From Styela clava (lineage: Eukaryota), in assembly GCF_964204865.1 (NCBI RefSeq), contig NC_135261.1, positions 682,001-746,000 on the forward strand: 64,000 nucleotides of DNA, read 5' to 3'. Below, piece by piece: positions 57,001 through 60,000 of the stretch. Within the stretch, counting starts at the first letter, position 1. Every line of letters starts with the position of its first letter. A program made the position numbers.

Positions 57001-60000
57001 CTGCCTAGTGGCAAGATGGCCAACATTTTTGATCGTGGGCCTATTTCAGTATTTACTAAATAATTTAGTTTTCACCTCTTGCAGCCTTGGTACGGTACCG
57101 GTAGTTTAAATAACACGTCAGCATACCTTCAGTCAATGATTGCTAGCTGTACAGGTATAAATGCGTAAAACCAGTAAACAAACGTGATAGAAATGGTACG
57201 GGTTATAGATTGTCAATGTTAAACGCTTCCAGTACCGGACGGACACGGACCCAAAGCGACATTAGGGTCGCATTTGCAGCGCATATCCCACAGAGCACGG
57301 CGCGTTGGCAGAATCGCATGGTCTAGTGAGAATGACGTCATCGGAAACACGGCGCTCATTAAAATTTTAATGAACGATTATTAAAAATCTTGACCATGTT
57401 TATCATGATAAAAATATCAAAAAAGACGTAAAAAAATATTCTATCCTCAAAACTGCTCACGTATACAATGAAAGATATCTTGAAAATTATAAAAAATGCA
57501 AATTTCTGCTCTGGTGATCACATTTCCCATAAGAGCTAATGTTAAAAAAATTTTTTTACATCACTTTCATTTTTTGAGCGTAGGATGGGTTTTTAATGAA
57601 TAAGGTCTATTATCAAAATTAGATTTTTTCTGAGTCGATTGTGAATTTCCTCCGACTTCACAGCCTTATCAAAATAAGGTTCTTTGCCAAATGTTTGAAT
57701 ATATATATATGTTTTTTTTTATATTTTATCGAAATTAAAATCTTCAGATATTTAGAGGTTACAGATACGAATCCGTTATTCAGAAAGTATCAAACATTTT
57801 TGTAATATAAAGGAATTTATTAAACATGAAATATATATTTGAATAAACCACATCGTCACCAATTTAAATTTATATACAATCACTCACAAACAAATTGGGT
57901 TACAATAATAAATTCAAACATTTCTTGAACACGTCTAAGAAATAAAAAATAGTTTGTTTTGTAGAAGTCTAACAATGAATGCAGTTTTATTGGAAATACC
58001 CAAGAAAAGCCCGACAGACAATTTGAATAAGTGAGCATTAAATCGTATCGGTTCAACATATAGGCCTCAGTTTTGAATTCAGTGGAATTGATTGTGTGAA
58101 GTAAATAGGAGAACATGGTCGTCTCTTTTCAATATAATTTTAAATCTTATTCCAATTATCATGCGAACATACAATCTTCCAATAGACTGATTGTAACCTA
58201 TGTATCTCAGGCTTATCGTGATCTATGTATCACAGTTCGAGCGGAGACAAAACAAACCATTCATAGTTTTCTAATTATAAGTGACAGAGCCTTGTTCAGA
58301 GTGACGATTTGAAAGAACCGTCTTATACAAGTGGTAACCTCAAATGTATCTCATATGAAAATTATATACCGCATGCAGGATTCCATATGATTGTTACACT
58401 GTGGGACGTGGAAATAGTATGTGGGGGTGTAAATTAGGCTGCATGTGTGGATAACGAATTATCGTGAATAAAAAAGCCTATGGTTGTTCAACTGTGGAAA
58501 GTTTTTTAAAGTTTTAATCAATCTACTTATGTGAAAAACAGTTACTCCTAAACTCAAGTAATTTTACAGTTGCTTGTTTATCGATCTTTCAATGGGCATA
58601 GTTATAATTCATTTTCACAGATGGCTCCGTGATATACATAGGAAGGAGAAACATTATAAATCCCTTGATCATTCTGTTCTGAGTCATGGTTGACATCAAC
58701 AGCAACAATTGTGCGAGATGCATCGGATTTCGGATGATCAGGTCGCCAAATATTACTTGACAGAGATATAGCTTGGCTCGTCGTTGAATACAGCTGACCG
58801 TTCTGTTGAAATAAAAAATATATTTCATGAAATATAACGATTGGCAATTTGAGAATATAGTCGAGTAAGGTTGAACCAGTAATCCTGGCCATATGATCTG
58901 ACAAAGCAAAACAACCTTTCTGGTGTCCAGTAAGAAACTGAATGAAGCGTGACACCACCACGTGATTATTCTGCTCTGTCACACTTCAGTGATTACCGTT
59001 GTTGGATAATAATTGAATAACAAACACGACACACAAATCAACTTAGTTTGGATTAGTCTTCTCTGATTTAGTATCAGAGCTGTAAAGTTGAAGCGTTCCA
59101 CTGGTGTAGGAGTAAACTTTTGAATCATCCGGAAACTTTAAATGGAAACGAAAGTTTGGGGTTGAATTTTTTGAAACTGGAAAACGCTGGCAAATGAATC
59201 TATCTAATCCGTAGGATTCGATTTGAACTTCTCTCCTATTCTACAATTATATGGGTTTAATCTCAAAATAAAATGTAATAGCGCATGATAATGCGGTAAC
59301 AATATCCGCCATAATAATAATATATAATATTATAATTAATATTTTATAATGATTTCATGTATGACCCCATAAACAACATGATTCAGACTCGACCTACCGT
59401 GTAAGTCATTCCCGTACGAACATAAACGCGTGTCCATCCATCAGGAATCATTGGTCGTAAATAATCTAGAACCCGGTTGTAGTGTGTGACGTCATAAATG
59501 TTAGCCAGTTTGTTATCGCAAAGAGATTCAGCGACGCTTAATGTGACGTTCTGTGCTTTGTAAACGATCGCTCGAAAACATTTCAAATTATAGACAAAGC
59601 CACATTCTGAAAGAAAATCCACAGTCGAAAAAGTTTGAAGTCAGATATTTATGAAACAATTATTAAGGAGAATATTTATTTCTACGTTTTAATTGGGAAC
59701 CTTATTCATTTTATTCAGTATCATTGTCTTTTATAGTTTTTTTTTACAAGAAAAGGGTGGTGATCCCTTTAGTAGTTATGATCATACGTCATCTTATTTG
59801 AATAATAAAGGTCTCGCAAACTTACTCAGAAATAAAGTAAACGTTTCCATGAGCAGAATGCGGGAAGCCACTGATCTATTGGGGCTGAATAAATATAGCA
59901 GTAAAATATACGATTGATAATACAGGCCTATGGGACTTGAAGAATATGAGCAGGATAAATCTATAACGTACTGAATATTAGATAACTGGAATTCCTAACT

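What the first reader, a model, noticed from the sequence alone, without database searches (positions are those of the whole stretch)
58602..59606. Lectin loops are hypervariable between the two paralogs while CCP/MAM exons are conserved
Hand counts of amino-acid identity: last CTLD exon 36/64 (56 percent, plus a 2-aa indel), first CTLD exon 50/69 (72), CCP2 47/58 (81), MAM exons 24/28 and 23/27 (about 85). Changes cluster: PTEVWYNGRQH vs SSNIWRPDHPK (the loop where EPN/QPD normally lies), LSGIRVC vs WTRVYVR, DTW vs KAQ. Inference: diversifying selection on the ligand-binding face, the signature of an immune or gamete-recognition repertoire.
Basis: partly seen in the sequence, partly recalled or inferred. 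Interest (0 to 1): 0.72.

Follow-up and report, generated by a model that had tools for sequence, protein, structure and literature searches.

The report
Hypervariable lectin-fold genes in a tunicate
Two neighbouring sea-squirt genes keep their stalk modules nearly unchanged, but their C-type-lectin-fold tip has patches that changed faster than the surrounding non-coding DNA, as expected of a diversifying recognition-protein family.

Summary
The window holds two minus-strand paralogs. Copy A is complete (about 44480 to 33589). Copy B is cut by the window end (64000 to 58602).

The last exon has dN 0.29-0.34 and dS 0.07-0.10, giving omega 3.1-4.5 by four methods (Fisher p=0.02-0.03). Flanking intron and 3' DNA differ by only K2P 0.19-0.21. 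MAM-like and CCP2 exons have dN 0.08.

The A/B differences sit on positions that are also hypervariable among Styela clava relatives (p=4e-12).

The domain gets no Pfam Lectin_C hit. A relative's model (pLDDT 93.7) matches solved CTLDs, and 3 of 8 tested members of a related subfamily pass Lectin_C. It has no EPN, QPD or WND motif and no second disulfide, so sugar binding is unproven.

"Diversifying selection" is supported, but from one gene pair at modest significance. "Ligand-binding face" and "immune or gamete recognition" remain inference. I rate it a new member of a known kind: a fast-evolving, tandemly duplicated CTLD repertoire.

The parts
58602..58802 (-). Copy B, last exon of the CTLD-fold domain (66 codons plus TAA stop). 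It carries variable patches HV3, HV4 and HV5.
   Evidence: Acceptor AG and the stop codon are conserved with copy A. Omega is 3.1-4.5.
59398..59606 (-). Copy B, first exon of the CTLD-fold domain (phase 1, 69 whole codons). It carries HV1 and HV2.
   Evidence: dN 0.155, dS 0.269.
58728..58760 (-). HV3 of copy B (SSNIWRPDHPK). This is the segment after the family-invariant Trp, where canonical CTLDs carry EPN or QPD (placement inferred).
   Evidence: The 60-column alignment window that begins at copy A coordinate 33749 (copy A's counterpart of this segment) is 67% identical, the lowest of any ungapped window in the 1.7-kb alignment. Family entropy peaks at P0005 positions 98-108. I computed the coordinates from the exon start given.
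58671..58715 (-). HV4 of copy B: alternate residues of predicted strand beta3 plus the beta3-beta4 hairpin, including the 2-codon indel.
   Evidence: Entropy alternates high and low at P0005 positions 112, 114 and 116, and is high at 120-123. Strands are from the DSSP of the model.
58632..58658 (-). HV5 of copy B: the end of beta4 and the beta4-beta5 loop.
   Evidence: Entropy at P0005 positions 127-136. A/B differences are shown.
59416..59436 (-). HV2 of copy B (WTRVYVR; LSGIRVC in copy A): the alpha2-beta2 loop and the start of beta2.
59551..59559 (-). HV1 of copy B (KAQ; DTW in copy A): the beta1-alpha1 loop.
62130..62303 (-). Copy B, CCP2 (Sushi) exon, phase 1-1.
   Evidence: Pfam Sushi matches the homologous copy A exon with E=3e-10. 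Alignment, coordinates.
62487..62568 (-). Copy B, MAM-like exon 4.
   Evidence: 23 of 27 residues are identical to copy A.
63443..63527 (-). Copy B, MAM-like exon 3.
   Evidence: 24 of 28 residues are identical to copy A.
63928..64000 (-). Copy B, MAM-like exon 2, cut by the window end. The rest of gene B lies outside the window.
   Evidence: 19 of 23 compared residues are identical.
33589..33783 (-). Copy A, last exon of the CTLD-fold domain (64 codons plus TAA).
34339..34547 (-). Copy A, first exon of the CTLD-fold domain.
37064..37237 (-). Copy A, CCP2 (Sushi) exon.
   Evidence: Pfam Sushi E=3e-10. Coordinates.
37346..40128 (-). Copy A, four MAM-like exons with their introns: about 40024-40128, about 39142-39282, 38324-38408 and 37346-37427.
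   Evidence: tblastn with S. clava relatives. There is no Pfam MAM hit.
40766..40960 (-). Copy A, CCP1 (Sushi) exon (approximate limits).
   Evidence: Pfam Sushi E=5.3e-13. tblastn.
42019..44480 (-). Copy A, 5' exons (approximate limits): a signal-peptide-like start, a Cys/Trp motif, a coiled-coil-like stretch and a Ser/Thr-rich stretch.
   Evidence: ORF translations. tblastn to P0001 gives up to 91% identity. The signal-peptide and coiled-coil roles are inferred.

Best explanation
The window carries two tandem members, about 25 kb apart on the minus strand, of a large gene family of a styelid sea squirt. Every named relative is a Styela clava protein.

Each gene encodes a secreted mosaic protein. 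In order, it has a signal peptide, a coiled-coil-like stretch and a Ser/Thr-rich stalk, a CCP module, a MAM-like beta module, a second CCP module, and a C-terminal domain with the C-type-lectin-like (CTLD) fold that ends the protein.

The stalk modules are kept under constraint. The CTLD head carries five short hypervariable segments on a conserved scaffold:
- the beta1-alpha1 loop;
- the alpha2-beta2 loop and the start of beta2;
- the segment after the invariant Trp, where canonical CTLDs hold EPN or QPD;
- the outward-pointing residues of beta3 plus the beta3-beta4 hairpin;
- the beta4-beta5 loop.

After duplication, amino-acid-changing substitutions accumulated in these segments faster than neutral change. 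This gives a germline-encoded repertoire of heads with different binding specificities on a common stalk.

Shown here: the gene structure, the CTLD fold (predicted), the family-wide hypervariable positions, and dN above both dS and intron divergence in the last exon.

Inferred: that the variable segments form the binding surface, that the proteins are secreted and oligomeric, and that the ligands are non-self or partner-cell molecules. Because the Ca2+/sugar motif is missing, the ligand may be protein rather than sugar.
For: Structure of the duplication:
- 33371-34924 aligns to 58385-59985 at 80.1% over 1613 columns, introns included.
- All compared splice sites and the stop codon are conserved.

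Selection in the last exon:
- dN 0.294, dS 0.100.
- Omega 3.08 (NG86), 3.20 (LWL85), 4.54 (YN00) and 4.01 (ML).
- Fisher test of non-synonymous against synonymous: one-sided p=0.019, two-sided p=0.034. Bootstrap P(dN<=dS)=0.0045.
- Differences by codon position 1, 2, 3 are 13, 17 and 10 of 64 each. The always-non-synonymous second position changed most.
- Neutral yardsticks: the intron between the CTLD exons has K2P 0.200 (547 nt), the upstream intron 0.185 (385 nt) and the 3' flank 0.214 (231 nt).

Site classes defined from database relatives, not from A or B:
- 46 hypervariable codons: dN 0.585, dS 0.250.
- 86 other codons: dN 0.068, dS 0.150.
- Hypervariable non-synonymous sites against non-coding flanks: p=8e-8. 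The other codons are below the non-coding rate: p=2e-5.
- The 30 hypervariable codons in the last exon: dN 0.53, dS 0.11, p=0.018.

Family level:
- 41 of 44 candidates matched exon 1, all named Styela clava. 35 more short relatives were found.
- Among 16 MAM-bearing paralogs, mean pairwise identity is 88% (MAM-like), 79% (CCP), 77% (CTLD exon-1 part) and 66% (exon-2 part).
- In 11 of 13 distinct paralogs, the nearest-neighbour distance is larger in the exon-2 part than in the MAM-like part.

Fold:
- The AlphaFold2 model of relative P0005 has pLDDT 93.7.
- The listed Foldseek PDB matches are all CTLD-fold proteins (CD23, type II antifreeze, SP-A, tetranectin, mincle, dectin-1), with probability 1.00 and TM 0.57-0.67. 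340 matches have E<=0.001.
- 3 of 8 tested members of the short related subfamily pass Pfam Lectin_C and align without trouble to the window's exons.
- Entropy alternates high and low along predicted strands beta2, beta3 and beta4, as expected if the variable side chains point to one face.
Against: - Only two nucleotide sequences were available, and the exon was picked after the fact. Exon-level p-values are 0.02-0.05.
- For all 46 hypervariable codons pooled, omega depends on the method: NG86 2.5, LWL85 1.9, YN00 1.13. ML was unstable, with dS about 22.
- The 16 hypervariable codons of the first exon have high dS (0.47, NG86 only). That fits imported or older patches better than fresh substitutions.
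- Copy B's exons have different nearest relatives: 93-96% identity in MAM-like exons, 80% in CTLD exon 1 and at most 67% in exon 2.
- Spatial clustering of the five segments was not computed, because no model coordinates were available.
- No Pfam Lectin_C hit for this subfamily, and family profiles found no PDB chain by sequence.
- EPN, QPD and WND are absent, so 'lectin' may be a misnomer.
- There is no expression, polymorphism or binding evidence.
- Gene B's 5' part lies outside the window, so I could not check that the gene is intact.
Confidence: 0.6

Rival explanations
1. Mosaic evolution without accelerated substitution. With more than 70 paralogs, short gene-conversion tracts or exon and patch exchange import diverged segments. 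Alternatively, conversion homogenises introns and stalk exons but stalls at already-diverged patches. Either way, the variable patches are simply older than the rest of the locus.
For: - Hypervariable codons of the first exon have dS 0.47 against 0.20 in the remaining codons.
- YN00 gives omega 1.13 for the pooled hypervariable codons.
- Copy B's nearest relatives change from exon to exon.
- Nearest neighbours agree across the MAM-like, exon-1 and exon-2 parts in only a minority of 13 paralogs, although distances correlate (Mantel r 0.42-0.68).
- The CCP module number ranges from 0 to at least 7 among relatives, so unequal exchange does occur in this family.
- Third-position divergence in MAM-like plus CCP2 exons (14 of 135) is below the intron rate, as homogenisation could produce.
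Against: - In the last exon, the focus of the finding, dS is low in all four methods (0.07-0.10). It is 0.10-0.11 (NG86, LWL85; ML 0.20) even within the 30 hypervariable codons.
- Most changed codons there keep their third base. A patch from a long-diverged donor should also differ at silent positions.
- Similarity to copy A runs uninterrupted at about 80-87% through the intron up to the exon, and resumes right after the stop codon. Any tract would have to be under about 100 bp and lie inside the exon.
- Retaining such patches against homogenisation would itself call for selection for diversity.
Confidence: 0.22
2. Relaxed constraint. One copy, most likely B, is decaying or free to drift, and the loops are simply unconstrained.
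For: - Copy B's last exon is at most 67% identical to any of the first 42 relatives retrieved (P0001-P0042).
- It alters the otherwise conserved LPTEVW stretch to LSSNIW.
- Gene B's 5' end is outside the window, and no expression data exist.
- Non-hypervariable codons of the last exon have omega about 1.2-2.2.
Against: - All compared reading frames, splice sites and the stop codon are intact in both copies.
- Differences concentrate on family-hypervariable positions (p=3.9e-12), while 86 other codons stay below the neutral rate (p=2e-5).
- Drift cannot push dN (0.53-0.59 at hypervariable codons) above the non-coding divergence of about 0.2.
- Scaffold residues (both Cys, the invariant Trp, the C-terminal ICE) are kept.
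Confidence: 0.08
3. Alignment artefact. The 2-codon indel and the loop regions mis-pair codons and inflate dN.
For: There is a 6-nt indel in the beta3-beta4 hairpin, and the four adjoining codons all differ.
Against: - Removing those 4 codons leaves omega at 2.96-3.68 in all four methods.
- The most divergent patch (HV3) has no indel and is bracketed by identical codons.
Confidence: 0.02

Closest known systems
Fast-evolving CTLD receptor families of mammalian NK cells (Ly49/KLRA, NKG2/CD94)
   Same: Tandemly duplicated genes with a CTLD that lacks the Ca2+/sugar motif, with variable residues concentrated on the head. Positive selection on these families is recalled, not checked here. One passage of PMC12582321 names Ly49 as fast-evolving C-type lectin NK receptors.
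   Different: Those are type II membrane proteins of vertebrates. Here the CTLD is at the C-terminus of a protein predicted to be secreted, with CCP and MAM-like modules. No homology beyond the fold was shown (12-19% identity to solved CTLDs).
Ascidian collectin or MBL-like lectins, and the 'expanded complement recognition genes' reported for Styela clava
   Same: Same animal group. Some relatives of the window genes carry the same head on a short collagen-like Gly-X-Y stretch plus a neck (P0004, P0014, P0031). The collagen hit is weak (E=0.0058, below cut-off). The S. clava genome paper reports 25 MBL, 54 ficolin and 16 CR1 genes found by BLAST (PMC7540406, passages seen). A review cites Styela plicata collectin-like proteins (PMC5465252, passages seen).
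   Different: The window genes have a CCP/MAM-like stalk, not collagen. The head lacks EPN and WND. None of the passages I saw describes hypervariable segments or dN/dS. I could not see that paper's supplementary gene lists, so I cannot say whether these loci were counted there.
Selectins and SVEP1-type CCP-plus-CTLD mosaic proteins
   Same: They combine CCP (Sushi) modules and a CTLD in one extracellular protein. NCBI's automatic names for the relatives include 'E-selectin-like' and 'sushi, von Willebrand factor type A, EGF and pentraxin domain-containing protein 1-like'.
   Different: The domain order is reversed (CTLD last, no EGF, no membrane anchor). The Ca2+ site is absent. The names are automatic, not tested.
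Botryllus fester/FF and FcoR allorecognition receptor families
   Same: Large, germline-encoded, Sushi-containing receptor families of a styelid ascidian, with a variable distal domain and intergenic recombination (PMC12582321, passages seen).
   Different: Their variable domain is Ig-like and they are membrane proteins. No sequence relation was found here.
CD23, type II antifreeze proteins, surfactant protein A, tetranectin (nearest solved folds)
   Same: Best Foldseek matches to the model of relative P0005: probability 1.00, TM 0.57-0.67.
   Different: Identity is 12-19%. The family lacks the second disulfide and the Ca2+ ligands. Sequence profiles do not find these chains.

Membership tests
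C-type lectin-like domain (CTLD) superfamily | Alpha/beta CTLD fold: two helices, an N/C-terminal strand pair, and an upper sheet with a long loop region. | tested here: met
   The model of family member P0005 has pLDDT 93.7, with the element order strand-strand-helix-helix-strands. The listed Foldseek PDB hits are all CTLD-fold proteins, and 340 matches have E<=0.001. This is a predicted fold of a relative 64-78% identical to the window exons. I did not fold the window proteins themselves, because that would need a joined exon model.
C-type lectin-like domain (CTLD) superfamily | Match to the Pfam Lectin_C profile (PF00059) at or above the gathering score. | tested here: not met
   No Lectin_C hit for the four CTLD exon translations at E<=1, or for 4 full-length relatives at E<=10. 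3 of 8 tested members of the short related subfamily do pass (28.1, 27.2 and 25.9 bits against a cut-off of 22.6) and align to the window exons. Homology is therefore supported only through these intermediates.
C-type lectin-like domain (CTLD) superfamily | Conserved cysteine pair C1-C4 (helix 1 to last strand), plus the extra N-terminal pair of long-form CTLDs. | tested here: met
   C140 is invariant and C38 is at least 90% conserved in 49 sequences. Both are present in A and B, as is the N-terminal C...C pair. Disulfide pairing itself was not shown. The assignment to C1 and C4 is recalled nomenclature.
C-type lectin-like domain (CTLD) superfamily | Second conserved disulfide C2-C3 in the beta3 / post-beta4 region. 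| tested here: not met
   Each window last exon has a single Cys. No other conserved Cys column appears in that part of the family alignment.
Ca2+-dependent carbohydrate-recognition domain (true C-type lectin) | An EPN or QPD tripeptide plus a WND motif forming Ca2+ site 2 (motifs recalled). | tested here: not met
   Neither EPN, QPD nor WND occurs in the last-exon translations of A or B. The corresponding stretch after the invariant Trp is the most variable segment. I placed these motifs by pattern and predicted secondary structure, not by a residue-level structural alignment.
Ca2+-dependent carbohydrate-recognition domain (true C-type lectin) | Demonstrated sugar binding. | not testable with these tools
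   This needs recombinant protein and glycan arrays.
MAM domain (PF00629) | Match to the Pfam MAM profile. | tested here: not met
   No MAM hit for the four exon translations or for full-length P0001 at E<=10.
MAM domain (PF00629) | MAM-type beta-sandwich fold. | tested here: inconclusive
   The model of P0038 is of low confidence (pLDDT 58; 55-71 over the module) and is all-beta. Its best Foldseek hit is a MAM-bearing horseshoe-crab astacin (8a28_A, E=6.6e-7, 25% identity), followed by unrelated jelly-roll carbohydrate-binding modules. In the ESM Atlas feature search, the top three clusters carry PF00629, at scores 0.84-0.86, which that tool rates as a lead only.
Sushi/CCP module (PF00084) | Match to the Pfam Sushi profile above the gathering score. 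| tested here: met
   Copy A CCP1: E=5.3e-13, 49.6 bits. Copy A CCP2: E=3e-10, 40.8 bits. The cut-off is 20.7 bits. Copy B CCP2 is 81% identical to copy A's.

The most novel reading that the evidence does not exclude
The family is a chordate, germline-encoded 'variable head' system. Dozens of loci place one CTLD scaffold with five CDR-like hypervariable segments on interchangeable stalks (CCP/MAM-like, collagen-like, or a short secreted form). It would then serve individual-specific recognition in a solitary ascidian: self-sterility between sperm and egg coat, or haemocyte allorecognition or pathogen opsonisation with allelic specificity. That would make it a CTLD-based counterpart to the Ig-based VCBP and fester/FcoR systems.
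Probability: 0.2. Interest if true: 0.8.

Novelty: new member of a known kind. Interest (0 to 1): 0.5.

Why it matters
Tunicates are the closest living relatives of vertebrates and have no antibody system, so how they encode recognition diversity in the germline is an open question.

This locus shows a clear case. A lectin-fold head, missed by Pfam's Lectin_C model in this subfamily, changes faster than neutral DNA at defined positions. The stalk modules of the same gene stay conserved, and the same positions vary across about 70 relatives.

It offers a tractable set of natural variants for asking what such heads bind. It also shows that a census of 'C-type lectins' based on Pfam alone would miss this family.

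Tried and rejected
- Rfam scan of the whole window: 0 matches at gathering thresholds. The well-conserved intronic stretch upstream of CTLD exon 1 (34740-34917 against 59804-59978, 89.7%) is not a known RNA, and it is only slightly above the 81-87% intron background.
- Sequence-profile searches of the family against PDB chains: alignment A1 gave only coiled-coil noise (18 matches, best E=0.039). The domain-centred alignment A3 gave 0 matches at E<=10. No residue-level alignment to a solved CTLD could therefore be made.
- Folding P0038 to test the MAM label gave a low-confidence model. I treat its fold search as a lead only.
- ML dN/dS on the pooled hypervariable codons did not give a usable estimate (dS about 22). 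YN00 and LWL85 failed on some small subsets.
The origin of unnamed representatives P0044-P0051, P0053-P0055 and P0057-P0059 stayed unknown. P0052 proved to be S. clava.
- Two hits of the representative search, P0043 and P0056, were repeat proteins with partial matches. I left them out of all alignments.
- Mapping variable sites onto the model in 3-D was not possible, because the tools return no coordinates.
- The pseudogene and alignment-artefact readings were considered and scored low (see the rival explanations).
- Genome contigs holds only bacteria and archaea, so I did not use it.
- No N is present in the window, and I do not take the contig for human.
- Searches were made exon by exon. 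I did not search or fold a joined (spliced) A or B protein, so the window's own domain was never modelled as one chain.
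Full report
**What is there.**
The window is AT-rich (about 37% G+C), has no N and is clearly animal DNA with short exons. I do not take it for human.

A self-comparison of all reading frames and blastn show a segmental duplication, with both copies on the minus strand. Region 32972-39215 (copy A) matches 57615-64000 (copy B):
- 80.1% over 1613 columns across the two last exons and their intron;
- 87.3% over the CCP2 exon;
- 75.5% over the MAM-like exons and introns.

The finding's coordinates, 58602-59606, run exactly from the stop codon of copy B to the start of its penultimate exon. 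All compared acceptor and donor sites and the TAA stop are conserved. Copy A is a complete gene from a signal-peptide-like start near 44480 down to 33589. Copy B is cut by the window end inside its second MAM-like exon.

**Check of the observation.**

| Exon | Identical residues |
|---|---|
| Last CTLD exon | 36 of 64 aligned, plus a 2-residue indel |
| First CTLD exon | 50 of 69 |
| CCP2 | 46 of 57 whole codons (47 of 58 with the split codon) |
| MAM-like exon 3 | 24 of 28 |
| MAM-like exon 4 | 23 of 27 |
| MAM-like exon 2 (part) | 19 of 23 |

The three named clusters are present. Non-synonymous differences are 36 of 148 sites in the last exon against 23 of 314 in MAM-like plus CCP2 exons (p=9.6e-7).

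Because introns align, neutral divergence can be read directly:
- K2P 0.200 for the intron between the two CTLD exons (547 nt);
- 0.185 upstream and 0.214 in the 3' flank;
- 0.20-0.26 in the MAM-region introns, and 0.27 in the short stretch just after the CCP2 exon.

For the last exon, dN is 0.294 and dS 0.100 (NG86). Omega is 3.08, 3.20, 4.54 and 4.01 by NG86, LWL85, YN00 and ML, and 2.96-3.68 after removing the four codons beside the indel.

Further tests on the last exon:
- Fisher tests give p=0.019 one-sided and 0.034 two-sided for non-synonymous against synonymous.
- Against the pooled non-coding flanks (201 differences in 1163 nt), p=0.026.
- The bootstrap gives P(dN<=dS)=0.0045 and P(dN<=0.20)=0.04.
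- Differences by codon position are 13, 17 and 10 of 64. The second position, which is always amino-acid-changing, changed most.
- The 60-column alignment window that holds HV3 is 67% identical, the lowest ungapped window in the 1.7-kb alignment. Intron windows are 81-87%.

By contrast, the first CTLD exon has omega 0.5-0.9, and the MAM-like plus CCP2 exons have dN 0.077 with omega 0.5-0.8. So dN/dS is elevated and the introns are less diverged than the exon's replacement sites.

**Family context.**
I searched exon by exon.
- The first CTLD exon of copy B found 41 proteins among 44 candidates, all named Styela clava, at 65-81% identity.
- The last exon of copy B found 25 cluster representatives in the 1.84-billion-protein library. 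I dropped two as repeat proteins.
- A search with representative P0052 found 35 more short (about 200 aa) S. clava proteins.

No database protein is identical to A or B. Copy A is nearest to P0001, P0002, P0003 and P0017 in every exon (84-100%). Copy B's last exon is at most 67% identical to any of the first 42 relatives retrieved (P0001-P0042). The window therefore comes from Styela clava or a close relative, from loci or haplotypes that are not annotated. I did not try to identify the source.

The same C-terminal domain sits on several stalks:
- CCP/MAM-like, as in the window;
- a short collagen-like stretch plus a neck;
- an unrelated N-terminal region;
- short secreted forms.

**Hypervariable positions.**
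Entropy over 33 close relatives defines variable segments at P0005 positions 25-27, 66-70, 98-108, 112/114/116, 120-123 and 127-136. The A/B differences fall on them: 25 of 34 top-quartile positions differ against 21 of 98 others (p=3.9e-12).

I then used these externally defined classes on the A/B codons:

| Codon class | Codons | dN | dS | Against non-coding flanks |
|---|---|---|---|---|
| Hypervariable | 46 | 0.585 | 0.250 | above, p=8e-8 |
| Remaining | 86 | 0.068 | 0.150 | below, p=2e-5 |

Within the last exon, the 30 hypervariable codons have dN 0.53 and dS 0.11 (p=0.018 against synonymous and 5e-5 against non-coding). Most changed codons there keep their third base.

Among S. clava paralogs the same gradient holds. 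Mean pairwise identity is 88% (MAM-like), 79% (CCP), 77% (CTLD exon-1 part) and 66% (exon-2 part). In 11 of 13 distinct paralogs, the nearest-neighbour distance is larger in the exon-2 part than in the MAM-like part.

**What the domain is.**
Pfam confirms the two Sushi modules. It gives no Lectin_C and no MAM hit for the exons or for four full-length relatives at E<=10. Family profiles find no solved chain by sequence.

The AlphaFold2 model of relative P0005, built with a 49-row alignment, is confident (pLDDT 93.7). Its listed PDB matches are all C-type lectin-like domains, with probability 1.00, TM 0.57-0.67 and 12-19% identity.

Three of eight tested members of the short related subfamily pass Pfam Lectin_C and align cleanly to the window's exons.

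The domain keeps the N-terminal Cys pair, the C1- and C4-type cysteines and an invariant Trp. It has no second disulfide and no EPN, QPD or WND (the motifs are recalled). It is therefore a divergent CTLD, and its sugar binding is doubtful.

That placement rests on pattern and predicted secondary structure, not on a structural alignment.

Entropy alternates high and low along predicted strands beta2, beta3 and beta4. This suggests the variable side chains point to one face. I could not compute spatial clustering because no coordinates are returned.

The MAM label has two weak leads. The ESM Atlas top three clusters carry PF00629, at scores 0.84-0.86. A low-confidence model (pLDDT 58) has a MAM-bearing astacin as its best fold hit.

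**Interpretation.**
The best reading (0.6) is a germline repertoire of secreted mosaic proteins, with variable CTLD heads that diversify under positive selection after tandem duplication.

The main rival (0.22) is patchwise exchange among paralogs, or homogenisation that spares already-diverged patches.
- For it: the high dS (0.47) of hypervariable codons in the first exon, YN00 omega 1.13 for the pooled set, and the shifting nearest relatives of copy B.
- Against it: the low silent divergence of the last exon, and unbroken flank similarity up to the exon borders.

Relaxed constraint (0.08) and alignment artefact (0.02) fit poorly.

The function (immune, gamete or other recognition) is untested.

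**Literature.**
Three full-text searches found no description of this family or of hypervariable CTLDs in Styela.
- PMC7540406 (passages seen) reports expanded 'MBL' (25), ficolin (54) and 'CR1' (16) genes in S. clava, found by BLAST. Some family members may be among them.
- PMC5465252 (passages seen) reviews ascidian C-type lectins and collectins.
- PMC12582321 (passages seen) describes Ig-plus-Sushi allorecognition families in Botryllus.

**Verdict.**
This is a new member of a known kind: a fast-evolving, tandemly duplicated CTLD family. Interest is moderate.

Noticed in passing
window 24353-29025, minus strand: A Ty3/gypsy-type LTR retroelement. It has an 885-aa open frame with protease, reverse transcriptase, RNase H and integrase domains (25284-27941). 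It is flanked by terminal repeats whose translated ORFs are 94-98% identical (24353-24562 against 28828-29025). Described only.
   Followed up: partly
window 13548-24055, plus strand: Two diverged copies (29-62% at protein level) of another retroelement-like ORF series, one with an RVT_1 hit (23004-23609). Between them lies an ORF with a DUF4371 hit (18238-19170), which I read from recall as transposase-like (hAT-type). Together with the LTR element, this gives about 15 kb of mobile-element DNA downstream of copy A.
   Followed up: partly
window 1-9420: Non-coding segments repeated three to four times (for example 38-2700, 3700-6200, 6900-9400) at 60-98% identity in all frames on both strands. 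Not identified.
   Followed up: no
window 36567-36911, and 61640-62090 in copy B: A minisatellite (88-bp unit, 3.9 copies, 72% matches) in the intron between CCP2 and the first CTLD exon of copy A. Related, differently arranged copies lie in the same intron of copy B. This is the one part of the duplication that does not align colinearly.
   Followed up: partly
window 37688-37768 and 38037-38145; copy B 62786-62895 and 63241-63322: A short element occurs twice in the intron between MAM-like exons 3 and 4 of each copy and cross-matches between the positions (79-80%). It looks like a small dispersed repeat inserted before the duplication.
   Followed up: no
relatives P0007/P0008 and P0038/P0039; window CCP2 exons 37064-37237 and 62130-62303: The CCP2 exon is phase 1-1, and annotated S. 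clava isoform pairs differ by exactly this module (462 against 520 aa, and 319 against 378 aa). Other relatives carry 0 to at least 7 CCP modules. The stalk length is therefore variable through splicing and through module duplication.
   Followed up: partly
relatives P0004, P0014, P0031 (no window coordinates): The same CTLD head follows a short Gly-X-Y collagen-like stretch and a neck, a collectin-like layout. The Pfam Collagen hit is weak (E=0.0058, below cut-off).
   Followed up: partly
window 34360-34362 (copy A, first CTLD exon): Copy A has an extra, unpaired Cys in predicted strand beta2 (IRVC, against YVR in copy B). The same Cys occurs in relatives P0021 and P0027. It could be a free thiol or an inter-chain bond.
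   Followed up: no
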